From IMG/VR virus record IMGVR_UViG_3300014205_006828, positions 1 to 64,000 of that record: a stretch of DNA of 64,000 nt. One strand, given 5' to 3'. This DNA is from a virus (Duplodnaviria; Heunggongvirae; Uroviricota; Caudoviricetes). Every line of letters starts with the position of its first letter. Positions within the stretch are counted from its first letter, which is position 1. Shown here piece by piece: positions 21,256-57,591 of this stretch. Position numbers and translations under genes: made by a program. The notes under the pieces are model-generated. The model was given only the letters and a program-made list of their open reading frames with translations, searched no databases and was not told the origin of the DNA.

Positions 21256-22119
21256 ATGCTTCAAACCAGAACATTCCCGGAACATAATTACCGAGCGCTG
21301 CACTTCAATGGGAAGACAGTACGTATAGCGATCGATCCTACCAAACCAATTACCGAGCTGGCATATCCGGAGTTCTACGACGTCAAGGTCACTTCGTATT
21401 GCAAAGGGAACTGTCCATACTGCTACCAAAGCAGCGTGCCCAGCGCCAAGCACACATCCGGTTTGGTTACGAGGTTTCGGGCGTTCTTCGATGGGTTCTC
21501 CCGCAACCAGATGCCATTCCAAATCGCCTTTGGAGGCGGGGAGCCCACCAGCCACCCAGAGTTCGCAGACCTGATGCGGGCCAGCGTGGATTTGGGAGTG
21601 GTCCCAAACTACACCACCAACGGCATGTGGGTTGACGATGCTGGCAAGGCACTGACCATCCTAGCCACCACGAAAGAGCTGTGCGGAGGTGTTGCTGTCT
21701 CAACTCATCAACACCTTGAGCGGCAATGGAGAGATGCTACCAATCTCTACTTGGAGAATGGTATTCATACCAATCTTCATATGATAATTGGTAACCGAGA
21801 GTCTATAGATCGGTTCTCCGAAATCTACAATGAGTTCTCTGGCAAGGTAAAGTACTTCATCTTGCTGCCGTTATCAGCTCAAGGCAGGGCAACAGAGGAG
21901 TTTTCTGATTGGGAATACCTCACATCTAAGATTGACGGATCCCCAAGAGACATCGGGTTTGGTGCGAACTTCCATCCATACCTGGTAAAAGATCATGGGC
22001 GCTTTGCTGTCAGCTTGTACGAACCAGAAAGCATGTCAGCATATCTTGATCTGGAAACCGGCAAGGTATTCAAGTCTTCGTTCTCCACTGAGGAAAGGAA
22101 GATTGGACATGCCTCTTAA
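21256..22119 (+). CDS. Radical SAM domain protein (CxxxCxxC cluster)
   Basis: YCKGNCPYCY (CX3CX2C) and a GGEP motif (FGGGEPTSHPEF). The start was moved to ATG 21256 to avoid overlap with the upstream gene. Confidence 0.55.
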   Translation: MLQTRTFPEHNYRALHFNGKTVRIAIDPTKPITELAYPEFYDVKVTSYCKGNCPYCYQSSVPSAKHTSGLVTRFRAFFDGFSRNQMPFQIAFGGGEPTSHPEFADLMRASVDLGVVPNYTTNGMWVDDAGKALTILATTKELCGGVAVSTHQHLERQWRDATNLYLENGIHTNLHMIIGNRESIDRFSEIYNEFSGKVKYFILLPLSAQGRATEEFSDWEYLTSKIDGSPRDIGFGANFHPYLVKDHGRFAVSLYEPESMSAYLDLETGKVFKSSFSTEERKIGHAS

Positions 22120-22290: not shown

Positions 22291-22782
22291 ATGACACCAG
22301 TGCTATTTGAGTTCAATATCCAAGGTACTCTTGAGCATGCGTTTGCGATATCGGCATTTTATCACGCAGGCATCAAAGATAAAGGCGGCCAGCCATACTT
22401 CAAGCATCCTCTTTGGATAGCCTCAGAGCTTCTATATCGTGGAGGGACTGACACAGAAATCTCTGTTGGTATACTTCACGATGTGGTTGAAGATACTCCA
22501 GTGACATTTGAGATGTTGAGGGAGTGGAGATTTTCTGAGGAAGTAATCGAAGCAGTAGATGCTTTGACACGCCGTGATGGTGAGGACCGCAATGAGTACA
22601 TCAAGAGAGTAGCTCAAAATCGTATTGCTAAGAAAATCAAGCTGCTTGACCTTCGGCACAACATGGATATCACAAGGTTGAAGAATAGAGGAAGTCTCCA
22701 AGATAAGGATCTGGAGAGAATTCGCAGCTACGCTCGTGAATATGAATTCCTGTCCGGAGGTTGTATAGGACCAATCTTCTAA
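22291..22782 (+). CDS. Small alarmone ((p)ppGpp) hydrolase, HD domain (SpoT/Mesh1-like)
   Basis: GQPYFKHPLWIASEL...ISVGILHDVVEDT...EVIEAVDALTR...KKIKLLDLRHNM matches the RelA/SpoT hydrolase HD signature (EPYI.HPL.VA ... LLHDVIEDT ... KLADRLHNMRT). Confidence 0.65.
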   Translation: MTPVLFEFNIQGTLEHAFAISAFYHAGIKDKGGQPYFKHPLWIASELLYRGGTDTEISVGILHDVVEDTPVTFEMLREWRFSEEVIEAVDALTRRDGEDRNEYIKRVAQNRIAKKIKLLDLRHNMDITRLKNRGSLQDKDLERIRSYAREYEFLSGGCIGPIF

Positions 22783-23192: not shown

Positions 23193-23723
23193 GTGAGCAT
23201 ACGAAGCATCTACGAGAGCATCGGAGTTGAGGCCTTCTACTCCGGCGTGATGCGGTACGAGAACCCCCACGCCCGCGAGGTTGATGCGCTGATCCGAGCC
23301 CACCACCTAGCGCTGCCATTGGAAAACGTCCTGGACCTGGCCTGCGGGAATGGGCTCGTTACCAGCTCGCTTCAGGCTTTGGGGCATTTTGACGTAATTG
23401 GGCTTGACCCGTTTCGGAGCGAAGAGTACACTGCTCGCACTGGGCGTCCATCATATAGGATGTCCTTTAAGGATATAGTCAATGACGGCCTGCCACATGA
23501 TTTCTCTTGCATAATTTGCAGTTTCGCAATGCATCTGTGCCAACAGAGTATGTTGCCAGACTTGCTTTGGAGATTGTCAGAGAGATCAAATACCCTTGTG
23601 GTAATATCGCCAACGAAGTTTCCGATCATTGGAAAACCTGTGGTCGAGGACGTCTGTTGGACGGCCAATAATAAGAGGATACAGTTTCGAAGATACAATC
23701 TACCACTATTTCCGAATAGTTGA
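23193..23723 (+). CDS. Class I SAM-dependent methyltransferase
   Basis: VLDLACGNGLVTSSL is motif I (hhDLGCGxG), followed by FDVIGLDPF. Confidence 0.5.
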   Translation: MSIRSIYESIGVEAFYSGVMRYENPHAREVDALIRAHHLALPLENVLDLACGNGLVTSSLQALGHFDVIGLDPFRSEEYTARTGRPSYRMSFKDIVNDGLPHDFSCIICSFAMHLCQQSMLPDLLWRLSERSNTLVVISPTKFPIIGKPVVEDVCWTANNKRIQFRRYNLPLFPNS

Positions 23724-23792: not shown

Positions 23793-23865
23793 GCCCCAAT
23801 AGCTCAACGGATAGAGCAACAGGTTTCTAACCTGTAGGCTTCAGGTTCGAATCCTGATTGGGGTA
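23793..23865 (+). tRNA. tRNA-Arg (anticodon TCT)
   Basis: Acceptor GCCCCAA/TTGGGGT, D-stem GCTC/GAGC, anticodon stem ACAGG/CCTGT with loop TTTCTAA, T-arm TCAGG-TTCGAAT-CCTGA. Confidence 0.75.
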
Positions 23866-23876
23866 CTAGGTAAGAT

Positions 23877-24368
23877 ATGATCACTTACGAAACCGCATTA
23901 GCTAACCAAGAAAAGGCGGCTGCAGCATACTCCAAAGCTTCAGCTAAATTGCAGGAAGCAAATAAGGTTCTTGAAGAAGCAAAGCGTCATTTGACAATCG
24001 AATGCATTTGCGGACACGAAACTAAAGTTAGTGATATAGAACTAATTGTAAAGAAGTTTGGCGGATACCAAGATTGTGATAACTGGAATTATTCAACCCG
24101 CTCCATGTGGGTTTGCCCAAGCTGTAAAGATGTTTTCGAACCGCCAGAAGATAAAGGACCATTCATTAGAGGTTTTGATAAGTACGTCAAAGTAGTTCAC
24201 GAGTGGTATTCGGATTCGCAGCGCTGTCATGGGCGCGTGCTAGATCTTCTTGCGCCTTATTTCAAGAAAGAAGAAGAACAAAAAGCAAAGGCGGATCATG
24301 AAAGAAAAGTTCGAGAAGCAAGAAAATTACTTGCACAAGAAGATAATACAGGTAATACTACAGCATAG
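23877..24368 (+). CDS. Hypothetical coiled-coil / zinc-finger protein
   Basis: 163 aa. CICGHETK...CPSCKD, with a lysine/glutamate-rich C-terminus. Confidence 0.4.
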   Translation: MITYETALANQEKAAAAYSKASAKLQEANKVLEEAKRHLTIECICGHETKVSDIELIVKKFGGYQDCDNWNYSTRSMWVCPSCKDVFEPPEDKGPFIRGFDKYVKVVHEWYSDSQRCHGRVLDLLAPYFKKEEEQKAKADHERKVREARKLLAQEDNTGNTTA

Positions 24369-24377
24369 ATTTGATAT

Positions 24378-24453
24378 GGCGGTGTGGGCTTATGGTGTCC
24401 CAGCAATCCTCATAAGGTTGCCCATGTGAGTTCGATTCTCATTGCCGCTACCA
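24378..24453 (+). tRNA. tRNA with anticodon CAT (Met/Ile2), with encoded CCA
   Basis: Acceptor GGCGGTG/TGCCGCT (three G-U pairs), anticodon stem CAATC/GGTTG with loop CTCATAA, T-arm GTGAG-TTCGATT-CTCAT, followed by ACCA. Confidence 0.5.
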
Positions 24454-24524
24454 AATGTTTACTTCCCAGCACATCAGCCTAACGATCACACGCGAGCCGC
24501 TAACGGCGGCGTGTAAGGATAGTT

Positions 24525-25631
24525 ATGGCGCATCACAAACGGCGAAAGCCGCCTAATTCCAGAGCTGGATGTTTTCTTTGTCATCCACATAAAATTACTG
24601 GATGTAAATTGAAAAACAAATATAAGCCATCAGATAGAAGGAAAATGATAGGATGGCAAAATTTCAAACCAACAATTCAAAACTAATTTGTTCATTTGAT
24701 GGATGTGGCAGAAAAGTTCTTTCAAAAGGTTGGTGCAGTGCTCACTACAAGCAGGTTGTAGTTGGTAAAAAGATCCTAAATCAATCATAGTATATTTACC
24801 AATTGGGCAAAGGCTCTATTCAAATATAGAGATATCAAATGGATGTTGGTTGTGGAAAGGGTCAGTAAATAACAAAGGATATGGAGTTATAGGTAGTGAT
24901 AATCTGGTATGAATGACCGAGATGGTTTGTTAACTCAGACGTCTCGCACGGGGCCATCGTCCAATGGGAGGACTTCAGACCTGCAATCTGAAAATGAGAG
25001 TTCGACTCTCTCTGGTTCCACTTCGGGGCTGTGTATAGGGATACAGATTTCCCTTGCAAGGAAATTCTCGACGGCTTCACAATTAGAAGTCGAGAGTCAG
25101 ATTATCTATACCACCACAAAGGTGCATAATTTTACATGTAAACACTGCCATAAAGAATTTGAATCCCCAGAAAAAGATCGAACTTTTTGCTCATTAAGCT
25201 GTTCAAGCAAATACAATAATACTGGAATTATAAGAAGCAGACCATTCGAGTGAATCAACTGTGGAGATAAATTCCGACGCACAAATACTCGCGGAAAGAA
25301 ATATTGCCCCAAATGTATACAAAACAAAATACACATCACAGACAGAAGAGTAAAAGATCTTTCAAAAGCCAGATGTGATAGAACACGCAAAAAGATACTA
25401 ATAGATACTAATGGAGAAAAATGTTCTGTATGTTCCAATGATAGTTGGTTGGGTAATAAAATTCCACTAGATATAGATCATGTTGATGGAAATTCTGAAA
25501 ACAATACTGAAACAAATCTAAGATTGATTTGTCCAAATTGTCACGCTCTAACCAAGACATATAAAGGCAAAAACAAAGGAAACGGAAGATATAACAGACG
25601 TAGTAGATACAACAAAGGATTGTCTTATTAA
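24525..25631 (+). pseudogene. Fragmented HNH homing-endonuclease remnants interleaved with tRNA genes
   Basis: Short ORFs in different frames carry HNH pieces: CFLCHPHK, GCGRKVLSKGWCSAHYKQ, SNGCWLWKGSVNNKGYGVIG, and an intact-looking core DIDHVDGNSENNTETNLRLICPNCHALT (25449-25631). Confidence 0.45.
24950..25020 (+). tRNA. tRNA-Ala (anticodon TGC), G3:U70 present
   Basis: Acceptor GGGGCCA/TGGTTCC with a G3-U70 wobble (the Ala identity element). D-stem GTCC/GGAC, anticodon stem TCAGA/TCTGA with loop CCTGCAA (C at position 33), T-arm GAGAG-TTCGACT-CTCTC. Confidence 0.6.
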
Positions 25632-25633
25632 TG

Positions 25634-25705
25634 CTGATTTAGTTGTAATGGTAGCACACTTGGCCTGTACCCATGTAGTATCAGTTCGAATCTGGTAATC
25701 AGCTC
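25634..25705 (+). tRNA. tRNA-like, probably tRNA-Thr (TGT). Weak D-stem and a C at position 33
   Basis: Acceptor GCTGATT/AATCAGC is perfect. Anticodon stem CTTGG/CCATG has one mismatch, loop CCTGTAC, T-arm ATCAG-TTCGAAT-CTGGT. Confidence 0.4.
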
Positions 25706-25720
25706 TACTCGCTAACTTGG

Positions 25721-25790
25721 TGTAACGGCAGCATGCTTGTTTCGTAATCAAGAGGCCCAGTTCAACTCTGGTAGTTAGCTCTAGTGAATG
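25721..25790 (+). tRNA. tRNA-Thr (anticodon CGT), compact
   Basis: Acceptor GCTAACT/AGTTAGC is perfect. Anticodon stem CTTG(T)/(T)CAAG with loop TTCGTAA, T-arm CCCAG-TTCAACT-CTGGT with one mismatch. Confidence 0.5.
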
Positions 25791-26059
25791 AAGTATTCTC
25801 CATAATCGGCATAATCGGCGCAATATGTTTCGCGTTATCCGGACTTCCTCAAGCTATCAAGTCCTGGAAGGATGGCCATTCTAGAGGGATTGCCACCGCA
25901 ACGGTTTGGTTATGGTTGGTTGGAGAGGCTGCAACACTTGCGTATACTTATCATAAATATCCAGATGATTACATTTTGATATTGAATTATCTCAGCAACG
26001 TAATTCTTGTAGGGATAGTCTTCAAATACAAATACTGGGCAAGGAATATCAACGAATAA
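25784..26059 (+). CDS. Small PQ-loop / SemiSWEET-like 3-TM membrane protein
   Basis: 91 aa. ICFALSGLPQAIKSWK has a PQ motif in the first TM helix. Three hydrophobic segments are in the SemiSWEET size range. Confidence 0.45.
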   Translation: MNEVFSIIGIIGAICFALSGLPQAIKSWKDGHSRGIATATVWLWLVGEAATLAYTYHKYPDDYILILNYLSNVILVGIVFKYKYWARNINE

Positions 26060-26113
26060 TTTAGCATATTCATAGGAGTAATCAAGTCGCACTCCTCAAT
26101 AATGAGGTGACAA

Positions 26114-26317
26114 ATGGTTACGATTAGAGAGGCAATAGTTCAGGTAGTTGCGGAGAAACTTCGGGAATATTACCTTCGTGGAATTAGAGATGCCCGCGTT
26201 GAAGCAGATGAAAATTCAATGCCAAGCATCCTTGAAGAGTTCGACGCTGGAGAGTTTGAAGATGCATGCGAACAACATGTATGGCTTAAAATAGCAGAGA
26301 ACATCATAGATATGTAA
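26114..26317 (+). CDS. Hypothetical small acidic protein
   Basis: 67-aa ORF. Confidence 0.3.
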   Translation: MVTIREAIVQVVAEKLREYYLRGIRDARVEADENSMPSILEEFDAGEFEDACEQHVWLKIAENIIDM

Positions 26318-26321
26318 ACAT

Positions 26322-26394
26322 GCCGATAGAGTTTGCTAGGGTGAACGCAACTTTGGTAAAGTTGAGGTGGTCAGTTCGAATCTGACTTTCGGCT
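26322..26394 (+). tRNA. tRNA-Thr (anticodon GGT)
   Basis: Acceptor GCCGATA/TTTCGGC, anticodon stem CAACT/AGTTG with loop TTGGTAA, T-arm GTCAG-TTCGAAT-CTGAC is perfect. Confidence 0.65.
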
Positions 26395-26423
26395 CAAAAC
26401 TCTGCATAAAAACGCAGAGAAGT

Positions 26424-27110
26424 ATGGTTTCAAAAATTTCTATCGTCGGGGTTGATGATAGTGTATGTCCCCAAGATCTAGCTGATATTTCACAGACCTT
26501 CAAGTTTGTTGAGTGGGGCATTAATCTGTACCCTGACCAAGGACAGAGGCCTGGATACCCTTCCTCAGAATGGCTTGAAGAACTGCTGCAATACTCTGAC
26601 GACCTCCAATTGAGGGGGATCTTGCACGGGCGTTGGGAAAGCGATATACTTGACGGTACGCTTTCTTTCAAAATAGAGAAGCCTGACCTTTGGAATGCAA
26701 TTGATTATGTACAGGTAGATATCCGCAATAGTCCGCGGAACATAGTTGATGTCCTTACCACATGCACAGATAAAACTTGCCGTGTAAAAAATAGGAACGG
26801 ATGTCTGCTGTGTGCTAAAAAGATCATACTACAAACCAATTACGTACCAACATTCAATGCCAATATTCTATTACCAAGAAGTGGAATGTTTTCTTTTTCT
26901 AGATATTGCGGATACTCAATACTTGAAGAGGATTTAGCATTGTTATGTACCGAAGTGAAGGAGTCTTTTTGGGTTAGCGTCGAGGGTTTCAAATCCAATA
27001 ACAATGTTACACTGGACCTATCTAGGATCACAGCATTTCTTAGCAAGGCCGAAGATTGCGTAACTCACTCTAGTCTGATGAGATACCTGCACAAGAAGAT
27101 AAGAGTATAA
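26424..27110 (+). CDS. Hypothetical protein
   Basis: The start was moved to ATG 26424 (MVSKISIVG) to clear the upstream tRNA. No family was recognised. Confidence 0.4.
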   Translation: MVSKISIVGVDDSVCPQDLADISQTFKFVEWGINLYPDQGQRPGYPSSEWLEELLQYSDDLQLRGILHGRWESDILDGTLSFKIEKPDLWNAIDYVQVDIRNSPRNIVDVLTTCTDKTCRVKNRNGCLLCAKKIILQTNYVPTFNANILLPRSGMFSFSRYCGYSILEEDLALLCTEVKESFWVSVEGFKSNNNVTLDLSRITAFLSKAEDCVTHSSLMRYLHKKIRV

Positions 27111-27111
27111 C

Positions 27112-27984
27112 ATGATCTTAGATCACATCAGGCAAATAGCTCATTCCAACTATTCTGAAGAAATTAGCAATGTAACTAATGAAGAGGTTGACGCTCTAAG
27201 CCAAAAGGATTTATTAGTACTTCACTCAATCATGATTGGGCCGCACGTAAGTTTGGCCCTAGCTGTTCTTCAGCGGATTGGATTCTTTGCCGATCTAATT
27301 CCAGAGATTCAGGCTGGTTTGGACTTACAGAGTTCAAAGCACTTCAAGGAAATTTGGCCGCATACGATTCGAGTAGTTGGTCAGACACCGCCGGTTCTTA
27401 ATGTTCGCTGGGCTGCACTGTTCCATGATCTTGGTAAGGCCAAGGCATTTGAGATCAAGAACAACAAGGTAACATTTCATAATCACGAGCATATCAGCGC
27501 AGGAATCTTTAATCAGTTTTCAAAGCGCACTGGGATTTTCAGCAGCGGACAGCGAAGATCTATCAGGTTTCTTATAGCTAATTTAGGTTATATGGAAGCC
27601 TATGAAAGTAATTGGACGGACACTGCCGTACGTAGGTTGGATAAGGAAGTCGGAATTTTTCTTGAAGATCTTTTGACTTTATCCGAGTCTGATATTACAA
27701 CCAGCAAACCGGAAAACAGAAGGAGGATCCTGAGAAGGATTCAAGAGCTGCGAGACCGCATTAAAGACATACGAGAAAAAGACTCAAAGCAATGTCCTCT
27801 ACCAAAGGGCTTGGGAAGCGCTATTGTTGATAACCTCGGCATTCCGCTCGGCCCCAGAATTGGGCAGCTCCGCAAGGAACTTGAGGAAAAGATTGATAGA
27901 GGAGAATTATTTGCAAATGAAACTATCACATACTATATTGAACATCTAAGAAAGTCACAGGTCGAGGAAACTACTAATACTTAA
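27112..27984 (+). CDS. HD-domain phosphohydrolase with a CCA-enzyme-like C-terminal tail
   Basis: H...HD motif (IWPHTIR...WAALFHDLGK). The C-terminal PLPKGLGSAIVDNLGIPLGPRIGQL parallels the tail of the CCA enzyme at 40289 (PISGKDLIAMGLKPGPIMGQIL). Confidence 0.45.
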   Translation: MILDHIRQIAHSNYSEEISNVTNEEVDALSQKDLLVLHSIMIGPHVSLALAVLQRIGFFADLIPEIQAGLDLQSSKHFKEIWPHTIRVVGQTPPVLNVRWAALFHDLGKAKAFEIKNNKVTFHNHEHISAGIFNQFSKRTGIFSSGQRRSIRFLIANLGYMEAYESNWTDTAVRRLDKEVGIFLEDLLTLSESDITTSKPENRRRILRRIQELRDRIKDIREKDSKQCPLPKGLGSAIVDNLGIPLGPRIGQLRKELEEKIDRGELFANETITYYIEHLRKSQVEETTNT

Positions 27985-28517
27985 GTATAATAATCTAGCC
28001 TGTATCTTGAACACAACGATATAGTTGGTTAGAACAGGACAAACCACTAACCATGGTTTGGGGCCATACCATAGCAGAATAATTCAGGGTGGTCATTTTT
28101 GCGGGCGTAGTTCAATTGGCAGAACGTCTGGTTGCCAACCAGGAGGTTGTGGAATCGTTGTCCACCGCTCGCTCCCCCACTTGTTAGTTGGGATAAATTG
28201 CTTTTCAGTAAGTGGTTTGTGACTGCCTCAGAACCCTGTCCTGTAAGGCGGTCATTTCGCAGATGTCGTATAGCGGCTATTATTCCTGGCTTCCAACCAG
28301 AAGACGAGGTTTCGATTACCTCCATCTGCTCCAATTAGTTGCGTTGCCAATCACCACGACCAGGTTTTTTCAATCCATGTTTTCTGGCACGCTTTCCAAT
28401 AATAGAATCTTACACTCCAAGTTCTTTTGATATTTGGGTTGTTGGTTTCTCAAATCACATTTTTTGACGTCGAATCACAATAATTCTTTTTTACATTACA
28501 TATATTCGTATTGATTC

Positions 28518-29432
28518 ATGGATCATTCTAGAGTTATTAAAAGATGGGCTTTATCCAATAAAGACGTAAATTCTCAGCTTGTTGTTTCAGAATCTATGAT
28601 CGATGGCTTCTTTGGAGTTAAAGTTGCTGCTGATTCAATGGATGAAGAAGCTTGTAAGATTCTGTCAGCTTATGTAGCATTCACTAGAGCACTCTACACA
28701 CTTCATCAGCAGAACCATTGGGAAGCTCAAGCCTATGAAGATCATCTACTCTTCCAGAGATTGTACGAAGATGCACAGGACTTAGCTGACGACGCCGCCG
28801 AGCGCACCATGGGCCTTTGTGGAGAGGTTGTGTTAGAAGGCGCTGAAGCGATTGCTAAGAAATTCGAGGCCCGCATCAAGACGCTCAGCTCGCTCCTGGA
28901 ATCCTCATTAGAGATTGAACGTGCCTTCCAAGATGTTGGCCAGAATACATACAATGTTCTGAAGGAAAAGGAGATGCTCACGCTTGGTCTTGATGACTTG
29001 ATTATGTCTCAAGCAAGCCAGGGTGAGGTTCACATTTACCTTCTACAGCAGGAATTAAAGGGATTAGGAGAAGATATGGGTAGCGTAGCCGATCATGCGA
29101 AAGAGATTATTGATAAGACCGAATCGTTGAAGGATATTGTGGTAACTGCGAAGAAACGCAAGCAGCCCGAATATAAGCCGAAGGACATCATCGAGTATAT
29201 CGAAGCCGCATTGAAGGTTCGCCCATACGAAGAAGTATTGTGCTACATCAAAGGCCTGGAAACTGAAGCGCTGGACCAAGTTATCAATATCCTGATGCGT
29301 ACAAATCCAGGACTATTGAAGAAGATTTACGTTAGCAGCATCACGAAGAAAGGTCCGGAAGAAGGCGAAATTGAAATCTCAGTTGAGCCTCCAAATACTG
29401 AAAATATTGAGAACGGAATAGTGCTTCTGTAA
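28518..29432 (+). CDS. Dps/ferritin-like N-terminal domain protein with a C-terminal extension
   Basis: ILSAYVAFTRALYTLHQQNHWEAQAYEDHLLFQRLYEDAQDLADDAAERTMGL parallels the Dps helix A/B region (L..L.vlY.KlHNyHWNVkG..F..lHe.FEe.Y.el.e..DeiAERi.alG). Confidence 0.45.
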   Translation: MDHSRVIKRWALSNKDVNSQLVVSESMIDGFFGVKVAADSMDEEACKILSAYVAFTRALYTLHQQNHWEAQAYEDHLLFQRLYEDAQDLADDAAERTMGLCGEVVLEGAEAIAKKFEARIKTLSSLLESSLEIERAFQDVGQNTYNVLKEKEMLTLGLDDLIMSQASQGEVHIYLLQQELKGLGEDMGSVADHAKEIIDKTESLKDIVVTAKKRKQPEYKPKDIIEYIEAALKVRPYEEVLCYIKGLETEALDQVINILMRTNPGLLKKIYVSSITKKGPEEGEIEISVEPPNTENIENGIVLL

Positions 29433-29984
29433 TTAATATGCAGCAACTGAAGAGTTTCTCACAACCTGATCAAAAGGCGGGAGAGTTGCAGCAGCTGCCG
29501 GTGGAGCGGATTTTTTTGGAGCTTCTTGCGCAACATCTGGTGCAACGTCTGGTTCCCAGAAATTCTGTGGTGGTTCCTCTGACATTACTATTCCATCCCC
29601 ATCGGTCTTGGTAGTTTTTGGTTTACGAGCTTTGGTAACTAGCGGAAGAGTTATGGTTTGGGTATTTCCAGAAAGACCGGCTAGCTTACCATTATTGAAA
29701 CCCTCAATATAAGCTCGTAGGTTAGAAACTTCATCGTGACTATCTTCAATTGACTTTGATAGATCTTCTGTCGTTTTCGTAAGCTCATTTACCTTCACCG
29801 ACAAAACTTCGTAGGTTGCTTTGGTCGCCGTAATATCCGGTGGCTTAAACCAAGAAGCAGCCGCCGTGAGAACAGCAGCTATTCCGATAATCAAACCCTT
29901 GTAAGATAGTATCTGGTTCAACAACGAGATTGTCTTATTCTCTTCAACTGGATTATTTTCTGTCTTAAGCTTATCTTCAGTCAT
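29433..29984 (-). CDS. Hypothetical single-pass membrane / coiled-coil protein
   Basis: TM helix (LIIGIAAVLTAAASWF), then a coiled-coil-like segment and a proline-rich tail. Confidence 0.4.
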   Translation of the reverse strand: MTEDKLKTENNPVEENKTISLLNQILSYKGLIIGIAAVLTAAASWFKPPDITATKATYEVLSVKVNELTKTTEDLSKSIEDSHDEVSNLRAYIEGFNNGKLAGLSGNTQTITLPLVTKARKPKTTKTDGDGIVMSEEPPQNFWEPDVAPDVAQEAPKKSAPPAAAATLPPFDQVVRNSSVAAY

Positions 29985-30323
29985 ACTAATAACCCAATAT
30001 ATTCATACAGGAATGAGGTAGTTATGCTATAGTTATGCAAACAACCAATAATTATGTTCCGACAATCATTGAACGTGGCGCTCGCCGAGCTACTCGCTAT
30101 GTCTGTAGTGGGGAAAGGTCTATGCGCTACTACAAGAAATCATGTCATCGTTCCTATCGTAGAGTAATAAAACATCGTCTTCATGAAATAACCGTTGGAT
30201 TAAAGGATATAGAAGAATATAATGATGAGCCCGGCCATTGTAAATGTACCAGTTGGGATATTTGGTAGTCGAGCATAATATTCAAGAATACCAATTACTA
30301 TTAGCCAAAGAAAAGAATGATAT

Positions 30324-30406
30324 GGTAGGACAATCCGATTGGCGACGGAACTTGTTTTGAAAACAAGCGAGCGCAAGCCTTGGGGATTCGAATTCCTCTC
30401 CTACCG
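30324..30406 (+). tRNA. tRNA-Ser (anticodon TGA), type II
   Basis: Acceptor GGTAGGA/TCCTACC is perfect. D-stem TCCG/CGGA, anticodon stem CTTGT/ACAAG with loop TTTGAAA, 14-nt variable arm, T-arm GGGGA-TTCGAAT-TCCTC. Confidence 0.7.
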
Positions 30407-30795
30407 CAATAAACGTATCCAGAATGGCGATATATCTATATTAGTAGAATGGTTAGCTAAATAGGGAATAATTGGAAATATAGACCCAAATGCAAGTAAA
30501 CCGCGTTCAGCTCCAGAGCTTTCGTTAGCCTGGGGCTTTTGGGGTAGGTGCCAGCCCTTAGGATCCGTGGGCAGTGGTGACCATGACGGCGAGAAAGAGC
30601 GCAAAGTCGATGAGTAAAGCGGACATGCATATACAGCTTCCCGACAATCCGGAGTAGACGATTGACAGCTGAAACGAGACAGCTAACGCTCGACGGGCGC
30701 GGAGAATGAACAGCACCAGACAGCTGGAAAGACAGCTGACGGCGGGAACAGACCGCATTATCTTCTCTGCATTGACCAACAATTCACCCAAATAT

Positions 30796-30878
30796 GGAGA
30801 GTAAACTTAGTGGGACTAAGCTCTGATTGGAAATTAGATGAGACTTAAACGTTAGTGATTCGATTTCACTGCTCTCCG
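30796..30878 (+). tRNA. tRNA-Ser (anticodon GGA), type II
   Basis: Acceptor GGAGAGT/GCTCTCC, anticodon stem TCTGA/TTAGA with loop TTGGAAA, long variable arm, T-arm AGTGA-TTCGATT-TCACT is perfect. Confidence 0.6.
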
Positions 30879-30890
30879 CAAAAGAATATT

Positions 30891-30981
30891 GGGTAAGATT
30901 ATCCGACAGCTGGCAACGGAACTTCTTTGCTAAAGAAGCGAGCCCCTGAAGGGCCTTTAGGGTTCGACCCCCTATCTTACC
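30891..30981 (+). tRNA. tRNA-Ser (anticodon GCT), type II
   Basis: Acceptor GGTAAGA/TCTTACC is perfect. D-stem TCCG/CGGA, anticodon stem CTTCT/AGAAG with loop TTGCTAA, variable-arm hairpin GCCCCTGAAGGGC, T-arm TAGGG-TTCGACC-CCCTA. Confidence 0.7.
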
Positions 30982-30990
30982 GCAACCCGA

Positions 30991-31479
30991 GTGCATATGA
31001 AAAAAGATACTTTCTACGATCAATATCCACTTGTATTTCCAAAACGCGAACCTGAACAAGGTTTTCATTGTGGTGAGGGATGGTATCAACTTCTGGATTG
31101 TCTATTCGAAGTAATGCAAAAAAATTTGGTTAAACAACCAGAGCCTATAGACTTCCGAATTACATATATTAAAGAGAAGTTCGGTACGTTGAGAGTTGGC
31201 TGCGAACACGCTACCGATTATATTCGAGAAACGGTTATTCAAGCCGAAGAGATGAGTGGCCACATCTGCGAAACATGCGGTGAGTACGGCAAGATTCGAA
31301 ACTCAGCTCATTGGATAAAAGTGCGCTGCGATTCCTGCGAACGAACTCACTTCGCACATCGCAACACGCCACTATTGTCAGAAGCAAAAGCTAGCCTAGA
31401 CGCTGGCATCAAGAGTGCTCAAGAACATCCTGCGATCAGCCTGGGCAGCTTTGCTAAATTCGCCGATGATGAAGAGTAG
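30991..31479 (+). CDS. Hypothetical zinc-finger protein
   Basis: CETCGEYGK...CDSCERTH. Confidence 0.4.
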   Translation: MHMKKDTFYDQYPLVFPKREPEQGFHCGEGWYQLLDCLFEVMQKNLVKQPEPIDFRITYIKEKFGTLRVGCEHATDYIRETVIQAEEMSGHICETCGEYGKIRNSAHWIKVRCDSCERTHFAHRNTPLLSEAKASLDAGIKSAQEHPAISLGSFAKFADDEE

Positions 31480-31769
31480 TTCACCGGCATAGTTCACTAT
31501 TTTGGTGAGTTGGCGTCCATAACCAATTCTGTTTGAGGCACTAAACCTTCTCATTCTTGCAAGCGAAATCAACGATAGCAGCTTCGAGCATGTAATCCTC
31601 GATGTAGAACAGCGGTACAGATGGGGCTGTTTCCGAGGTACGAAAGGCATTCACAATCAATTGTCCAAGGCGCAGATCTGGACACTTGATCCATGATTGA
31701 AAGATCGCCTCTATCATCATACTTTTCTGAGCTACAGTCAGAGCGCGCCCTTCAGGTGGTTGCATTGCC

Positions 31770-31982
31770 TCAATGCACTCTTATTAGTTCAAGATAGTAT
31801 GTTTCATCTTGATCAGTCATGCGTTGAAATACCTTATGGCAATCATGGCACTCAAACACTGATGTTACTTTCAATCCAAGTAGAGTGCCTTGACATTTGG
31901 GACAATGAGCTTCTGAAATTACTGTTTGTAGAAGCGTGGTGCCTATTCCTTCGAGAAGTATTTTTGTATCTAGTGTTTTCAT
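31770..31982 (-). CDS. Hypothetical small zinc-ribbon protein
   Basis: CPKCQG...CHDCHK. Confidence 0.3.
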   Translation of the reverse strand: MKTLDTKILLEGIGTTLLQTVISEAHCPKCQGTLLGLKVTSVFECHDCHKVFQRMTDQDETYYLELIRVH

Positions 31983-32266
31983 GAAATAAGATCTGGCCTT
32001 CCACCTAATCTAGACCGAATGCACCCAAGAAGTATTTGAGATACCGGAAGACCATCCACTCTCTGAATGGTTAGGGGATATGGATTGAGAACGTAATCTT
32101 CTTTAGTATAACCCAAGAATTCAATGATACTGTATACTTCATATTTTATTGCCTGAAATACACTTGCAATAGATTGTCGCAAGGTAGGTTTGTATTCAAA
32201 TTCGTTATTAAGAATCGTTACAGTACAATCATCCATTCTTTTACCCCTGATCATATACAGTAACAT
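31979..32266 (-). CDS. Hypothetical protein
   Basis: 95-aa ORF, translationally coupled to its neighbours. Confidence 0.3.
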   Translation of the reverse strand: MLLYMIRGKRMDDCTVTILNNEFEYKPTLRQSIASVFQAIKYEVYSIIEFLGYTKEDYVLNPYPLTIQRVDGLPVSQILLGCIRSRLGGRPDLIS

Positions 32267-32741
32267 TAATTCCTCTCTTTAATAACTCTTGTTCAATAAG
32301 TGGCTCAATAACACTCCACTCCCCTTGTGCTAATCCTGCTCCGATCCGAGGCATATGTACTGCTGCGGTATGCTGACTGATTTCATCACCAGCTTTACTC
32401 AAGCACTGTTGTAGAGCTTTATAGTCAATCGGCTTAGGATTGTTTGGACCTACGATGCCTTTTTGAGCCACCATGTTGATAACAACTAGGTCGCTCAGAA
32501 TCTGAATTACCTGAATATCACCAAGTAGTAGCTTTCCAAAGCGTTCGCGCCACCACTTACGATACTCTGTTTCAACCTTCGGCCATCGCTTAGAAAGTGC
32601 TCCTGAAAAGCCTGCTCCGTATTTCCCCTCATCATTCACGATTTGGATAATGTAACGGTTGCTACTTCCGAGAGGATTTGTTGCATCGCCCTTTACGAAC
32701 TTGAGAAGGCCTTTGGGATTATGATCACTTGGGTTTACCAT
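32241..32741 (-). CDS. Macro domain protein (ADP-ribose binding/processing)
   Basis: VKGDATNP...IVNDEGKYGAGFSGALSKRWP...VHMPRIGAGLAQGEW matches macro-domain motifs (GDIT; NAAN..L.gGgGVdgAI; iafPaistGiyG). Confidence 0.55.
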   Translation of the reverse strand: MVNPSDHNPKGLLKFVKGDATNPLGSSNRYIIQIVNDEGKYGAGFSGALSKRWPKVETEYRKWWRERFGKLLLGDIQVIQILSDLVVINMVAQKGIVGPNNPKPIDYKALQQCLSKAGDEISQHTAAVHMPRIGAGLAQGEWSVIEPLIEQELLKRGINVTVYDQG

Positions 32742-32811
32742 ATTGTTTCCTACGAAAAGAAGTAGTTTTTGATCTGAAACTACAAAACAGGTACCAGTGC
32801 GCCACTCTGCG

Positions 32812-33042
32812 TTATTTCTTCCGATAGATTATACGACACTTAGTTATATCGAAGGTATCGAGTTCGATATCAACTTTATCACCCTCAACAACCTTAATGT
32901 TATTGGTCCTCATCTTACCAGACAGCTGTCCCATGACTCTTCTAGTGTTGCCATTCTCAAGATCAATGAGAATGGAGAAAAATCCGTTACCGCACGCTTT
33001 ATTAATAAGCCCATTGAATCTTGGTTTTTCACTCGGCATCAA
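32812..33042 (-). CDS. infA: Translation initiation factor IF-1 (bacterial type, S1-like OB fold)
   Basis: NGFFSILIDLENGNTRRVMGQLSGKMRTNNIKVVEGDKVDIELDTFDITKCRIIYR aligns with E. coli IF-1 ([52 protein letters not shown]). Confidence 0.75.
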   Translation of the reverse strand: MMPSEKPRFNGLINKACGNGFFSILIDLENGNTRRVMGQLSGKMRTNNIKVVEGDKVDIELDTFDITKCRIIYRKK

Positions 33043-44723: not shown

Positions 44724-45068
44724 ATGCTTATCAAAATGAGAAACGGAAACATCGCCCTTGAAGAGTCTGCTGCTGATGAGCGTACATCTAGCGGTCTTTA
44801 CATTCCACAAACAGTGGGTCGTAAAGGAAGTCTTCGATTCGGAAAGGTAGTTGAAGTTGGACCCGGTGAATTAGTCCAGGGAATATTCGTCAAAGTTGAT
44901 TTTGAAAAGGGTCAAGATGTAATCTTCGACGCATCTCGCTCAGAAATTGTTGAAGTTGACGGAAAGAAATTGACAATCTGTAATATGGTGGATATCATCG
45001 CAACAGTAAGTGCTAAGCACCTATCTGTCGTTCCAGATGCTCCACCACCCGCTAACGAAATCGCCTAA
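44724..45068 (+). CDS. groES: Co-chaperonin GroES-like (Cpn10)
   Basis: GLYIPQTVGRKGSLRFGKVVEVGPGE...VDFEKGQDVIF...KKLTICNMVDIIATV follows the GroES pattern (GI.LP.sA.eK...G.VvAVG.G ... vkvGD.V.f ... lil.e.DIlAvv). Confidence 0.55.
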   Translation: MLIKMRNGNIALEESAADERTSSGLYIPQTVGRKGSLRFGKVVEVGPGELVQGIFVKVDFEKGQDVIFDASRSEIVEVDGKKLTICNMVDIIATVSAKHLSVVPDAPPPANEIA

Positions 45069-56781: not shown

Positions 56782-57591
56782 TCAATATTCTCTAGCACTT
56801 ATACCATGATCAGTGATAATGTGCCGATTACCATCTTCATCAAGAGTAATGGTGTGTTCGAAATGACATCCGATATCATGAGTTATCACTGTCCATTTAT
56901 CAGTGAGGGTTTTTGTCTTGACATTCTTCCCAAGCACAAACATAGGTTCAATAGCAATCGACATTCCGGGCTGCATCGTTACCCCATCATTTACTGATGA
57001 CTTGTTTGGAACAAATGGATCAGCGTGCAGTTTGTTATGCTCTATTCCATGACCTCCAAATTCAATCACCACACCAAACCCATCGCTCTTTGATCTGTCG
57101 AAGATCGCTCTACCAATCTCGCCTATTCGACGCCCAGGTTCAACTAGTGCAATAGCATCATACAATGCATCTTGGCAAGAAATCAATAACCGCAATATCT
57201 CTGGGTTCTTTGGCTTTCCATATATGTATGTTACGGCACAATCTCCAATAGCGCCTTCGAAGGTTGCTCCGATATCAACCTTAAGAACATCACCATCCTT
57301 CAATTGGATATTTCTGCTTCCCATCCCATGAACCAATTCGGTATTAAGTGAAGCACAGATAGAACTGGGAAATCCTCGATAATTAAGAAATGTAGGAGTA
57401 CAGTTGTTTTGTCTTATTAGGTCATCAACCATACTATTTAGTTTGGAAAGCGTAAGGTTGCTGGCCATACCTTTGAACATAGCGTAAATCTCTTGATGAG
57501 CTTTACCTACGACACGACCAGCAATCTTCTGCCGCCCAATCCAATCCTTATCCTTGAGAACAATGATTTCGCTTTTACTTGGTAGTGCCAT
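56782..57591 (-). CDS. map: Methionine aminopeptidase, type I
   Basis: MetAP-I pita-bread fold. Metal-site residues follow the expected MetAP-I order (H..VHGMG, DGDVLKVDIGATFEGAIGDCAVTY, GGHGIEH, SIAIEPMF). Confidence 0.75.
   Translation of the reverse strand: MALPSKSEIIVLKDKDWIGRQKIAGRVVGKAHQEIYAMFKGMASNLTLSKLNSMVDDLIRQNNCTPTFLNYRGFPSSICASLNTELVHGMGSRNIQLKDGDVLKVDIGATFEGAIGDCAVTYIYGKPKNPEILRLLISCQDALYDAIALVEPGRRIGEIGRAIFDRSKSDGFGVVIEFGGHGIEHNKLHADPFVPNKSSVNDGVTMQPGMSIAIEPMFVLGKNVKTKTLTDKWTVITHDIGCHFEHTITLDEDGNRHIITDHGISAREY

What the first reader, a model, noticed from the sequence alone, without database searches (positions are those of the whole stretch)
23793..33042. Virus-encoded translation support set: about 14 tRNAs with Ser and Thr isoacceptor clusters, IF-1, CCA-adding enzyme, MetAP, GroES and an alarmone hydrolase
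Cloverleaves can be folded by hand for: tRNA-Arg(TCT); two CAT tRNAs; Ala(TGC, with G3:U70); Thr(TGT?/CGT/GGT) in a row; Ser(TGA/GGA/GCT) in a row plus Ser(CGA) at 3315-3401; Pro(TGG) at 37170-37243. These sit alongside a bacterial-type IF-1 (32812-33042), a class-II CCA-adding enzyme (40289-41950) and a second HD protein with a CCA-like tail (27112-27984). Methionine aminopeptidase (56782-57591), GroES (44724-45068) and a SpoT/Mesh1-type (p)ppGpp hydrolase (22291-22782) complete the set. This looks like a deliberate take-over of host translation and of the stringent response. The isoacceptor triplets for Ser and Thr suggest codon-usage compensation.
Basis: partly seen in the sequence, partly recalled or inferred. 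Interest (0 to 1): 0.6.

Follow-up and report, generated by a model that had tools for sequence, protein, structure and literature searches.

The report
Huge-phage tRNA and translation gene island
This stretch of an uncultured bacteriophage genome about 460 kb long carries 15 working-looking tRNA genes plus an initiation factor, a CCA-adding enzyme and other translation helpers, which is real but typical of what is already known for huge phages.

Summary
The window has 15 credible tRNA genes and one tRNA-like oddity. Twelve lie in 23793-30983. Its hand-folded Ser(TGA) and Ser(GGA) fall below default ARAGORN thresholds, and Rfam sees none of the three clustered Ser genes. All three are real: nine such phage tRNA-Ser pair at 186 of 189 stem cells, with many double changes.

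IF-1 (above the infA cut-off), a class II CCA-adding enzyme, type I MetAP and GroES are confirmed. So is a head-less CCA-like HDIG protein.

The alarmone hydrolase is closest to Aph1, a (p)ppApp-specific enzyme. It is not closest to SpoT or Mesh1, so the stringent-response reading is weakened.

The exact proteins sit on a 463-kb contig labelled Pacearchaeota at NCBI. The gene content is bacterial or phage-like, and relatives are 200-450 kb IMG/VR viral contigs with the same island.

tRNAs, IF1, CCA-adding and tRNA-modifying enzymes in huge phages were described in 2020, so this is a new member of a known kind. Codon compensation cannot be tested without a host.

Unexplained extras: a conserved TIM-barrel/HDIG pair inside the tRNA cluster, and a repeat-rich non-coding element abutting tRNA-Ser(GGA).

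The parts
3314..3401 (-). tRNA-Ser(CGA)
   Evidence: ARAGORN default; Rfam tRNA 50.9 bits
10630..10704 (+). tRNA with CAT anticodon (elongator Met or Ile2; not initiator-like)
   Evidence: ARAGORN; Rfam 62.1 bits; structure
   Evidence: ARAGORN; Rfam 47.5 bits when the region is searched alone
22291..22782 (+). Small alarmone hydrolase, Aph1-like (probable (p)ppApp hydrolase)
   Evidence: PF13328 HD_4; phrog_990 at 2.5e-50; PDB 7smg (p)ppApp hydrolase at E=2e-24 with D24 and R119 equivalents kept
23193..23723 (+). SAM-dependent methyltransferase, PHROG family annotated as tRNA methyltransferase
   Evidence: Methyltransf_25; phrog_19153 at 7.6e-27; conserved in L001 and L016
23793..23866 (+). 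tRNA-Arg(TCT)
   Evidence: ARAGORN; Rfam 72.4 bits
24378..24453 (+). tRNA with CAT anticodon and encoded CCA; atypical D arm
   Evidence: ARAGORN; Rfam 26 bits, below gathering; near-identical copies in L040 and L042 with a compensatory acceptor change
24950..25021 (+). tRNA-Ala(TGC) with G3:U70 and C33 in the anticodon loop
   Evidence: ARAGORN; Rfam 59.2 bits; loop CCTGCAA conserved in L001, L040 and L042
25035..25631 (+). HNH-like homing-endonuclease reading frame with one in-frame TGA (probably decaying)
   Evidence: Translation; HNH and HNH_3 hits below threshold, E 0.003-0.007
25633..25705 (+). tRNA-Thr(TGT), C33
   Evidence: ARAGORN; Rfam 47.1 bits; loop
25711..25781 (+). tRNA-Thr(CGT)
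   Evidence: ARAGORN; Rfam 43.8 bits
26322..26395 (+). tRNA-Thr(GGT)
   Evidence: ARAGORN; Rfam 44.7 bits; position conserved in L001, L017-L019, L040 and L042
26424..27110 (+). 228-aa TIM-barrel protein of unknown function, always directly upstream of the HDIG protein
   Evidence: No Pfam, PHROG or PDB sequence hit; AF2 pLDDT 83.5 and generic TIM-barrel matches with TM<0.5; conserved in L001 and L016-L019
27112..27984 (+). Head-less CCA-enzyme-like HDIG protein (body/tail plus HD, no nucleotidyltransferase head)
   Evidence: TIGR02692 positions 195-459 only, plus HDIG; 3wfo residues 307-500; 24% identical to the C-terminal half of the window's CCA enzyme; 233 homologues, many on 200-460 kb contigs
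   Evidence: ARAGORN; Rfam 54.4 bits
   Evidence: ARAGORN; Rfam 54 bits; 3' end
30324..30407 (+). tRNA-Ser(TGA), non-canonical D arm
   Evidence: ARAGORN only at 90% threshold; no Rfam hit; 93% identical to L001 with compensatory D-stem and anticodon-stem changes
30480..30762 (+). Conserved ORF-free, repeat-rich element upstream of tRNA-Ser(GGA); function unknown
   Evidence: 84% identical to L001; present in L040 and L042 and duplicated in those three relatives; no conserved ORF; no Rfam hit; no covariation
30796..30879 (+). tRNA-Ser(GGA)
   Evidence: ARAGORN only at 80% threshold; hand parse gives a perfect cloverleaf; covaries with orthologues
30892..30983 (+). tRNA-Ser(GCT)
   Evidence: ARAGORN default; no Rfam hit; covariation table
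32241..32741 (-). Macro-domain protein next to IF-1
   Evidence: phrog_335 at 1.5e-27; Macro E=0.0016; adjacent to IF-1 in L001 and L018 too
32812..33042 (-). Bacterial-type translation initiation factor IF-1
   Evidence: TIGR00008 64.2 against 61.15; PF01176 at 1.7e-14; only IF-1 chains in the PDB; conserved in L001, L018, L040 and L042
37169..37243 (-). tRNA-Pro(TGG)
   Evidence: ARAGORN; Rfam 63.5 bits; present in L038
38058..38131 (-). tRNA-like cloverleaf with a 6-nt anticodon loop and aberrant T loop (probable pseudogene)
   Evidence: ARAGORN '???' call; MFE cloverleaf z=-2.6; no Rfam hit; absent from relative L038
40343..41950 (+). Class II CCA-adding enzyme with C-terminal HD domain (ORF opens at 40289; the likely ATG is at 40343)
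   Evidence: PolyA_pol 8e-29, HD, tRNA_NucTran2_2; phrog_2244; motifs read; PDB 9kma at 8e-66
44724..45068 (+). GroES-type co-chaperonin
   Evidence: PF00166 49.8 bits; phrog_3188
56782..57591 (-). Type I methionine aminopeptidase
   Evidence: TIGR00500 196.6 against 171.35; PDB MetAPs down to 4e-42

Best explanation
The window is part of an uncultured huge bacteriophage genome; the contig is at least 463 kb. Region 22-31.5 kb is a plus-strand tRNA island with 11 tRNA genes: Arg, one CAT tRNA, Ala, three Thr, two Gly and three Ser. Interleaved with them are an Aph1-type alarmone hydrolase, a methyltransferase of a PHROG family annotated as tRNA methyltransferase, a TIM-barrel protein paired with a head-less CCA-like HDIG protein, decaying homing-endonuclease frames and a conserved non-coding element. 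Further tRNAs (Ser, CAT, Leu, Pro) and IF-1, a full CCA-adding enzyme, GroES and MetAP lie elsewhere in the window. The most likely function is to keep phage protein synthesis running during a long infection, independently of the state of the host's tRNA pool. The phage would supply its own decoding set for whole codon families. It would mature those tRNAs itself, since 13 of 15 do not encode CCA and so need a CCA-adding enzyme. It would also add its own initiation factor, N-terminal processing enzyme and co-chaperonin. Shown here: gene identities, tRNA structure and covariation, and conservation of the island across a clade of 200-460 kb phages. Inferred: expression, aminoacylation, and any benefit to translation.
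For: The case for a huge phage rests on several points. The exact proteins lie on a 463,377-bp contig. Relatives are IMG/VR viral contigs of 169-452 kb. The closest GenBank phage matches for the RNR are the 735 and 642 kb phages LR756501-3. IF-1 homologues occur in Lak megaphages and the 469-kb phage Phosso. The window also holds inteins, HNH endonucleases, a sigma factor and a DnaB-like helicase. The island is conserved: orf67, Thr-ggt, TIM barrel, HDIG protein, Gly tRNAs and the Dps-like gene keep their order in L001, L016-L019, L040 and L042, and the hydrolase, methyltransferase and IF-1 are in the same neighbourhood in L040 and L042. Only 2 of 15 tRNAs encode CCA. tRNA sequences diverge fast, at 53-93% identity to positional counterparts, yet keep their pairing, which indicates selection on function. 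The published description of this gene repertoire in huge phages is PMC7162821.
Against: No expression or activity data exist for any of these genes. The genes are dispersed on both strands over 55 kb and are not an operon, so calling them a 'set' is a thematic grouping. No aminoacyl-tRNA synthetase, ribosomal protein or elongation factor turned up among the ORFs scanned (most of those of 150 aa or more plus selected shorter ones). The host is unknown, so a need for extra tRNAs cannot be shown. Two tRNAs have C33 instead of the near-universal U33, and one tRNA-like gene is clearly defective, so not every member need be a working decoder.
Confidence: 0.7

Rival explanations
1. The island is mainly a counter-defence module that replaces and repairs tRNAs. 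Phage tRNAs with altered anticodon loops would replace host tRNAs destroyed by anticodon nucleases. The CCA-adding enzyme and the head-less HDIG protein would rebuild or heal damaged 3' ends. The Aph1-type hydrolase would neutralise (p)ppApp-making or tRNA-pyrophosphorylating RelA/SpoT-like toxins. The macro-domain protein would reverse ADP-ribosylation. This overlaps with the best explanation rather than excluding it.
For: tRNA-Ala(TGC) with a C33 loop is conserved in four genomes, alongside a canonical copy in two of them. Thr-tgt also has C33. The hydrolase is Aph1-like, and Aph1 is an immunity protein against a (p)ppApp synthetase toxin. The HDIG protein is tightly linked to tRNA genes across a wide clade. 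Published cases of phage tRNAs defeating tRNA-targeting defences are PMC10264068, PMC11464382 and PMC11555353. [quoted passage not shown]
Against: No RNA ligase, polynucleotide kinase or known anti-defence gene was seen among the ORFs scanned; the PADLOC library was not searched. C33 occurs in about 5% of tRNAs on unrelated viral contigs (29 of 548), so it is not special to this genome. Most loops here are canonical. No host nuclease is known for comparison. The phosphohydrolase activity of the HDIG protein is only inferred from the domain.
Confidence: 0.3
2. Codon-usage compensation, the first reader's suggestion: the tRNAs supply codons that are common in phage genes but poorly served by the host.
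For: Arg-tct and Pro-tgg match the phage's most used Arg and Pro codons, AGA (RSCU 1.68) and CCA (1.90). GC3 is only 0.41.
Against: Ser-cga and Thr-cgt read the phage's own rarest Ser and Thr codons, TCG (0.50) and ACG (0.59). The Ser, Thr and Gly sets cover the entire families rather than particular codons. The isoacceptor complement differs between close relatives, for example extra Ala-ggc, Gly-ccc and duplicated Ala-tgc in L001 and L040. The host genome is unknown, so the key comparison is missing.
Confidence: 0.2
3. Selfish accretion: the tRNA genes are largely passengers in a region of high turnover driven by homing endonucleases and small mobile ORFs, with little benefit to the phage.
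For: Spacers between tRNAs hold broken HNH-type frames. Inserted ORFs differ between relatives at the same sites. Positional tRNA counterparts are only 53-82% identical where flanking proteins are about 80% identical. One tRNA-like gene is defective and lineage-specific. T4 has the segB endonuclease inside its tRNA cluster.
Against: Anticodon identity and order (Thr x3, Gly, Ser x3) persist down to 49-68% protein identity, and stems are kept by compensatory change. That pattern is purifying selection on function.
Confidence: 0.12
4. The sequence is a fragment of a cellular genome, a DPANN archaeon as labelled at NCBI, and not a virus.
For: NCBI names the identical proteins 'Candidatus Pacearchaeota archaeon'. 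No capsid or terminase gene was identified within this 64-kb window.
Against: IF-1 fits bacterial infA (64 bits) far better than aIF-1A or eIF-1A (16-22 bits). MetAP is type I, and GroES, a sigma-70-type factor, a DnaB-like helicase and a peptidoglycan transglycosylase are bacterial or phage features. Relatives are catalogued as viral genomes of 169-452 kb in IMG/VR. There are many PHROG hits, two inteins and several HNH endonucleases. No rRNA, ribosomal protein or aaRS was seen.
Confidence: 0.03

Closest known systems
Translation-related gene repertoires of huge phages (Al-Shayeb et al. 2020, PMC7162821) and Lak megaphages
   Same: Genomes over 200 kb with many tRNAs, IF1, CCA-adding tRNA nucleotidyltransferase and tRNA-modification genes, interpreted as redirecting host translation. 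IF-1 homologues at about 40% identity are found in Lak phages and in the 469-kb Sinorhizobium phage Phosso. The best RNR and HDIG matches among GenBank phages are the 636-735 kb phages LR756501-4.
   Different: There is no nucleotide-level match to any GenBank phage, and protein identities to those phages are only 27-42%. This window holds no aaRS or ribosomal protein. It does hold a type I MetAP, for which no PHROG family matched; the few 'phage' database hits look like short or contaminated records.
Phage T4 tRNA region
   Same: It is a cluster of tRNA genes interrupted by a homing endonuclease (segB) and followed by two small stable RNAs of unknown function (rnaC, rnaD). An A1pp or macro-type phosphatase (tk.4) and a Dps-like rI.-1 gene lie about 10-12 kb from the tRNA cluster. 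Half of the T4 tRNAs lack encoded CCA. From established knowledge, those depend on the host CCA-adding enzyme and RNase BN.
   Different: T4 has 8 tRNAs and relies on host IF-1. No CCA-adding enzyme is annotated in the T4 stretch examined; that T4 relies on the host enzyme is established knowledge. Here the phage carries its own CCA enzyme, a head-less paralogue, IF-1 and MetAP. There is no sequence similarity between the conserved non-coding element and any Rfam family.
Aph1 (adenosine 3'-pyrophosphohydrolase 1), PDB 7smg, PMC10083569
   Same: The 22291-22782 product aligns end to end with Aph1 (E=2e-24). It is of similar small size (163 aa against 149). It keeps the HD motif and the D24 and R119 positions reported to confer ppApp specificity. 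Aph1 is itself encoded in a temperate phage.
   Different: No adjacent (p)ppApp synthetase toxin gene was recognised here; the neighbours are a radical SAM protein, small ORFs and a methyltransferase. Activity was not tested.
Class II CCA-adding enzymes with an HD domain (E. coli Cca type) and the Aquifex A-adding enzyme (3wfo)
   Same: The 40343-41950 protein has the head motifs GGxVRD, DxD and EDxxRRD plus an HD domain and tail. The 27112-27984 protein aligns with the body/tail and HD part.
   Different: Neither reaches an NCBIfam equivalog cut-off (161 and 95 bits against 438.8). The head domain is closest to solved structures named cca1/cca2 and 9kma (3e-51 to 8e-66), which I take from memory to be eukaryotic enzymes, rather than to bacterial ones (1e-15 to 1e-18). 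The 290-aa protein has no head domain and so cannot add nucleotides.

Membership tests
tRNA (Rfam RF00005) | Cloverleaf with a 7-bp acceptor stem, D, anticodon and T arms, and a 7-nt anticodon loop | tested here: met
   15 genes. Ten are at or above the Rfam gathering score, and Leu scores 47.5 bits. The CAT tRNA at 24378 scores 26 bits, below gathering. The three clustered Ser genes get no Rfam hit but pair at 186 of 189 stem cells with covariation across nine homologues.
tRNA (Rfam RF00005) | Same features, for the element at 38058-38131(-) | tested here: not met
   It has a 6-nt anticodon loop, a T loop reading UGCGAGC, and no G18G19. It gets no Rfam hit and is absent from relative L038. 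It is treated as tRNA-like or a pseudogene.
tRNA-Ala | G3:U70 identity pair | tested here: met
   The ARAGORN structure shows g+t at 3:70.
Bacterial IF-1 (infA, TIGR00008 / PF01176) | Score above the curated equivalog cut-off, with the S1-like OB domain covering the whole protein | tested here: met
   64.2 bits against 61.15, covering residues 8-75 of 76. The eIF-1A and aIF-1A models score only 22 and 16 bits. All 12 PDB matches are IF-1.
Bacterial IF-1 | Binds the 30S A site and stimulates initiation | not testable with these tools
   The alignment keeps the SGKMR, GDKV and C-terminal RI..R motifs, but there is no functional assay.
Class II CCA-adding enzyme | Nucleotidyltransferase head with GGxVRD, DxD, RRD and the EDxxR nucleotide-selecting motif | tested here: met
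   For 40343-41950, GGWVRD, DIDIA and EDAQRRD are read. PolyA_pol scores 8e-29, and PDB tRNA nucleotidyltransferases score 3e-51 to 8e-66. The NCBIfam equivalog cut-offs are not reached, so CCA versus CC- or A-adding specificity remains open.
Class II CCA-adding enzyme | The same head domain, in the 27112-27984 protein | tested here: not met
   Only model positions 195-459 of TIGR02692 and residues 307-500 of 3wfo are matched. The upstream 228-aa ORF is a TIM barrel, not a detached head. The protein is not filed as a CCA-adding enzyme.
Aph1-type (p)ppApp hydrolase | Small HD-domain hydrolase with the D24 and R119 specificity residues (PMC10083569) | tested here: met
   The full-length alignment to 7smg (E=2e-24) has D at the D24 position (HAGIKDKGG) and R in NMDITRL. 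The residues are as named.
Aph1-type (p)ppApp hydrolase | Hydrolyses (p)ppApp but not (p)ppGpp | not testable with these tools
   This needs an enzyme assay.
SpoT/Mesh1 (p)ppGpp hydrolase | Closest relatives are (p)ppGpp hydrolases | tested here: not met
   Rel, SpoT and Mesh1 structures match at 8e-11 to 1e-5, far weaker than Aph1. TIGR00691 scores 57.6 bits against a cut-off of 499.
Type I methionine aminopeptidase (TIGR00500) | Score above the equivalog cut-off over the full pita-bread domain | tested here: met
   196.6 bits against 171.35, covering residues 10-255. There are 49 MetAP structures at E<=1e-20. Metal ligands were not checked individually.
GroES / Cpn10 | Cpn10 domain over the full length | tested here: met
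   PF00166 scores 49.8 bits against 21.1, covering residues 3-94. The NCBIfam GroES models are below their cut-offs (49.5 against 96), so this is a divergent member.
Huge phage (genome over 200 kb) | Viral genome longer than 200 kb | tested here: inconclusive
   The exact proteins lie on a 463,377-bp contig, and relatives are IMG/VR viral contigs of 169-452 kb. No virion gene was identified inside this window, and the full contig could not be inspected.

The most novel reading that the evidence does not exclude
The conserved core of the island is the run orf67, tRNA-Thr, TIM-barrel protein, head-less CCA-like HDIG protein and tRNA-Gly x2. On this reading it is an undescribed tRNA 3'-end healing or quality-control system of huge phages. 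It would work together with the full CCA-adding enzyme and the Aph1-type hydrolase against tRNA-targeting host immunity. The repeat-rich conserved non-coding element that abuts tRNA-Ser(GGA) would be a new stable RNA co-processed with the tRNAs, analogous to T4 rnaC and rnaD.
Probability: 0.12. Interest if true: 0.6.

Novelty: new member of a known kind. Interest (0 to 1): 0.33.

Why it matters
The finding adds one more lineage of 200-460 kb phages carrying their own tRNAs, IF-1 and CCA-adding enzyme, which is already an established theme.

Three points have practical value. First, a 463-kb contig deposited as a Pacearchaeota archaeon is almost certainly a bacteriophage. Second, a family of phage tRNA-Ser genes escapes the Rfam model, and in part escapes default ARAGORN, so tRNA counts for such phages are underestimates. 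Third, the 'alarmone hydrolase' of such phages should be read as Aph1-like and (p)ppApp-directed, not as a tool against the stringent response.

The head-less CCA-like protein with its TIM-barrel partner is a conserved gene pair of unknown function, tied to tRNA genes, and could be tested biochemically.

Tried and rejected
1. Diverged RNase P RNA, tmRNA or other known RNA for the element at 30480-30762. Rejected: no Rfam match at E<=10, no tmRNA, MFE z=-0.86, RNAalifold on four copies gave 21 pairs with no double change, and TRF found nothing. It is also not a conserved ORF on either strand.

2. Split CCA-adding enzyme, with the 228-aa ORF as a detached head domain. Rejected: the AF2 model (pLDDT 83.5) is a generic TIM barrel.

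3. Stop-codon recoding as the reason for the in-frame TGA and the ORF-poor spacers. Rejected: the standard code already gives 86% coverage by ORFs of at least 100 codons, and TGA is a frequent terminator.

4. Near-invariant C74 in CCA-less tRNA genes as a special feature of this clade. Demoted: 75% of 285 CCA-less tRNAs on 120 unrelated IMG/VR loci also have C74, and many loci are at 100%. C33 is likewise found in 5% of those tRNAs.

5. The DEDDh exonuclease at 39240-39956, next to the CCA gene, as an RNase T that trims to C74. Not supported: DnaQ and PolC models score higher than RNase T (44 against 23 bits).

6. The tRNA-like element at 38058 as a conserved feature. Rejected: it is absent from L038, and the odd call in L018 is unrelated.

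7. Nucleotide match to a known phage: none. An exact-protein look-up of the 553-aa ORF failed because of the start codon chosen.

8. Host inference from homologue names: none of the close homologues carries an organism name.

9. A 16-mer scan for the non-coding element gave mostly chance hits.

Full report
**Observation: tRNAs**

Default ARAGORN finds 14 tRNA-type genes in the window. At relaxed thresholds it adds Ser(TGA) at 30324-30407 and Ser(GGA) at 30796-30879. Rfam's tRNA model finds 10 at gathering score. It finds Leu(TAA) at 47.5 bits when that region is searched alone. The second CAT tRNA scores 26 bits. None of the three clustered Ser genes is found, even at E<=10.

I tested the Ser genes comparatively because their support was the weakest. 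Nine tRNA-Ser of this type, from the window and five related phage contigs, share one architecture: a 7-bp acceptor stem, a 3-nt connector, a 4-bp D stem, a short variable arm and G73. They pair in 186 of 189 stem cells. Double, compensatory changes occur at many positions; for example the D stem reads TCCG/CGGA, TCCA/TGGA, GCCA/TGGC or CTTA/TAAG.

The three Ser genes are therefore real. Its own refutation test, "tRNAscan fails to find them", would have given a false negative.

The sixteenth element, at 38058-38131, is a tRNA-like cloverleaf with a 6-nt anticodon loop and a defective T loop. It is absent from the closest relative and is probably a pseudogene.

**Observation: proteins**

- **IF-1.** It passes the infA equivalog cut-off (64.2 against 61.15). 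It scores far lower on the archaeal and eukaryotic models, and it matches only IF-1 chains in the PDB.
- **CCA-adding enzyme, 40289-41950.** The ORF has a PolyA_pol head with GGWVRD, DIDIA and EDAQRRD, plus an HD domain and a tail.
- **HDIG protein, 27112-27984.** It matches only the C-terminal half of such enzymes. It has no head domain and so cannot be a nucleotidyltransferase.
- **MetAP.** It passes the type I equivalog cut-off.
- **GroES.** It is a divergent Cpn10.
- **Alarmone hydrolase, 22291-22782.** This 163-aa HD_4 protein aligns end to end with Aph1, the (p)ppApp-specific hydrolase (7smg, E=2e-24). Rel, SpoT and Mesh1 hydrolases match 13 to 19 orders of magnitude more weakly. It keeps the D24 and R119 positions that the Aph1 paper identifies as conferring ppApp specificity.
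A methyltransferase of a PHROG family annotated as tRNA methyltransferase lies just upstream of tRNA-Arg. A macro-domain protein lies next to IF-1.

**Source**

There is no nucleotide match to any GenBank phage. The identical proteins lie on a contig of 463,377 bp. NCBI labels that contig "Candidatus Pacearchaeota archaeon".

That label is very unlikely to be right, for four reasons:

- IF-1, type I MetAP, GroES, a sigma-70-type factor, a DnaB-like helicase and a peptidoglycan transglycosylase are bacterial or phage features.
- The window has inteins in IMPDH and in the ribonucleotide reductase, and several HNH endonucleases.
- The best phage matches are the 636-735 kb huge phages, Lak megaphages and a 469-kb rhizobiophage.
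- Homologues of the HDIG protein retrieve 24 IMG/VR viral contigs, most of them 170-450 kb long.

**Conservation**

The order orf67, tRNA-Thr(GGT), 228-aa ORF, HDIG protein, Gly tRNAs and Dps-like gene is kept in relatives down to 49% protein identity. In closer relatives (L040, L042) the hydrolase, the methyltransferase, the Ala/Thr/Gly/Ser tRNA runs and IF-1 are all in the same neighbourhood.

Positional tRNA counterparts are only 53-93% identical between genomes whose flanking proteins are about 80% identical, yet their stems stay paired. Spacers between tRNAs differ through inserted small ORFs. In this window they hold broken HNH-type reading frames. The island is thus a conserved scaffold with rapid local turnover.

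**Function**

Only 2 of the 15 tRNAs encode CCA, so they need a CCA-adding activity, which the phage carries. The Ser, Thr and Gly sets each cover their whole codon family. Arg(TCT) and Pro(TGG) match the phage's favourite Arg and Pro codons. Ser(CGA) and Thr(CGT), however, serve its rarest Ser and Thr codons.

This fits a self-sufficient decoding supply better than targeted codon compensation. The latter cannot be tested without a host.

My best explanation (confidence about 0.7) is the established one for huge phages: these genes keep phage translation running regardless of the state of the host machinery. PMC7162821 lists tRNAs, IF1, CCA-adding and tRNA-modifying enzymes in huge phages and proposes exactly this.

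The main rival overlaps with it and reads the island as counter-defence. In its favour:

- a tRNA-Ala(TGC) with C33 is conserved in four genomes;
- the hydrolase is Aph1-like;
- the HDIG protein is tightly linked to tRNA genes;
- phage tRNAs are known to defeat tRNA-targeting defences.

Against it, C33 occurs in about 5% of tRNAs on unrelated viral contigs, and no ligase or kinase repair genes were seen.

The "take-over of the stringent response" reading is not supported.

**Leads that did not hold**

- The 228-aa ORF upstream of the HDIG protein is a generic TIM barrel, not a detached head domain.
- The near-invariant C74 in CCA-less tRNA genes of this clade is widespread. It occurs in 75% of 285 such tRNAs on 120 unrelated viral loci.
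- The DEDDh exonuclease next to the CCA gene is DnaQ-like rather than RNase T.
- There is no sign of stop-codon recoding.

**Unexplained**

A 280-nt ORF-free element at 30480-30762 lies between Ser(TGA) and Ser(GGA). It is 84% identical to its counterpart in L001, higher than most flanking coding DNA. It is present in L040 and L042. In the three relatives it is tandemly duplicated and directly abuts tRNA-Ser(GGA).

It starts with a GC-rich hairpin followed by a T run; read off alignment A6, three of the hairpin's pairs appear to change in a compensatory way. It is rich in the repeated words GACAGCTG, TCGATGA, AAGCGGA and GGAAAGACAG. It has no Rfam match, no excess folding energy, no covariation in its body and no conserved ORF. 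It is missing from more distant relatives.

The nearest precedent is the pair of stable RNAs rnaC and rnaD at the end of the T4 tRNA cluster. That is an analogy, not a demonstrated relationship.

**Verdict**

This is a new member of a known kind, and interest is modest (0.33). What value there is lies in four points:

- the corrected (p)ppApp reading of the hydrolase;
- the tRNA-Ser family that escapes standard detectors;
- the probable mis-binning of the contig as an archaeon;
- two conserved unknowns, the TIM-barrel/HDIG pair and the non-coding element.

Noticed in passing
window 30480-30762 (L001 15050-15495; L040 13475-13937; L042 15582-16071): A conserved ORF-free, repeat-rich element lies between tRNA-Ser(TGA) and tRNA-Ser(GGA). 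It starts with a terminator-like hairpin. The three relatives have two tandem units of about 170-180 nt abutting the tRNA, while the window has one. It has no Rfam hit, no covariation and no conserved ORF. Its function is unknown.
   Followed up: partly
window 38058-38131 (-): An intergenic tRNA-like cloverleaf has a 6-nt anticodon loop, the T loop UGCGAGC and a C1-G72 pair. It is absent from the close relative L038, so it is probably a recent tRNA pseudogene.
   Followed up: partly
window 24454-24949 and 25035-25631: The spacers between tRNA genes hold fragments of HNH/AP2-type homing endonucleases (CWLWKG..GYG and CPNCH motifs) in different frames. One longer frame is interrupted by a single TGA at 25251-25253. 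Pfam support is below threshold.
   Followed up: partly
window 42435-44594 (-) and 58757-62140 (-): The IMPDH/GMP-reductase-like gene and the ribonucleotide reductase (its phage matches are annotated cobalamin-dependent class II) each carry an intein, and the RNR intein includes an HNH domain. The IMPDH intein (about 42920-44065) is missing from relative L038, as expected for a mobile insertion.
   Followed up: partly
window 5426-8176 (+): A 916-aa protein has major vault protein shoulder and repeat domains (PF11978 at 4.6e-27, PF17795), which is an unusual domain for a phage.
   Followed up: no
window 40343-41950 (+) and homologues P0236-P0261: The head domain of the CCA-adding enzyme is far closer to solved structures named cca1/cca2 and 9kma (3e-51 to 8e-66), which I take from memory to be eukaryotic enzymes, than to bacterial ones (about 1e-15). 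Homologues at 46-50% identity are fused to peptidoglycan-hydrolase domains (M23, CHAP, VanY-like).
   Followed up: no
all tRNA genes in the window and in loci L001, L016-L019, L024-L032, L040, L042: Position 74 is C in almost every tRNA gene although most lack C75. A control on 120 unrelated IMG/VR loci shows the same tendency (213 of 285 CCA-less tRNAs), so this is a general property of phage tRNA genes and not of this clade.
   Followed up: yes
window 24950-25021; L001 8003-8076; L040 5294-5365; L042 9032-9103: A tRNA-Ala(TGC) with C33 instead of U33 (loop CCTGCAA) is conserved in four genomes, next to a canonical Ala(TGC) copy in two of them. C33 is seen in about 5% of tRNAs on unrelated viral contigs.
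   Followed up: partly
whole window; proteins P0001, P0121, P0147: The identical proteins are deposited at NCBI under 'Candidatus Pacearchaeota archaeon' on a 463-kb contig. The gene content argues for a mis-binned huge bacteriophage.
   Followed up: partly
window 11215-11298: tRNA-Leu(TAA) scores 47.5 bits on the Rfam tRNA model but was dropped by the speed filters when the whole 64-kb window was searched at gathering threshold.
   Followed up: yes
window 39240-39956 (-) and 48739-49383 (-): There are two separate DEDDh (DnaQ-like) 3'-5' exonuclease genes. One is divergently adjacent to the CCA-adding enzyme gene, and this arrangement is also seen in L038. The substrate is unknown.
   Followed up: partly
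window 11722-12693, 13737-14228, 35977-36807, 52465-53139, 21202-22119: Other accessory genes are present: an NAD kinase-like protein, a YpsA/SLOG-DprA-like protein, an R2K-clade ATP-grasp, a protein with an eCIS core domain, and a radical SAM protein upstream of the hydrolase.
   Followed up: no
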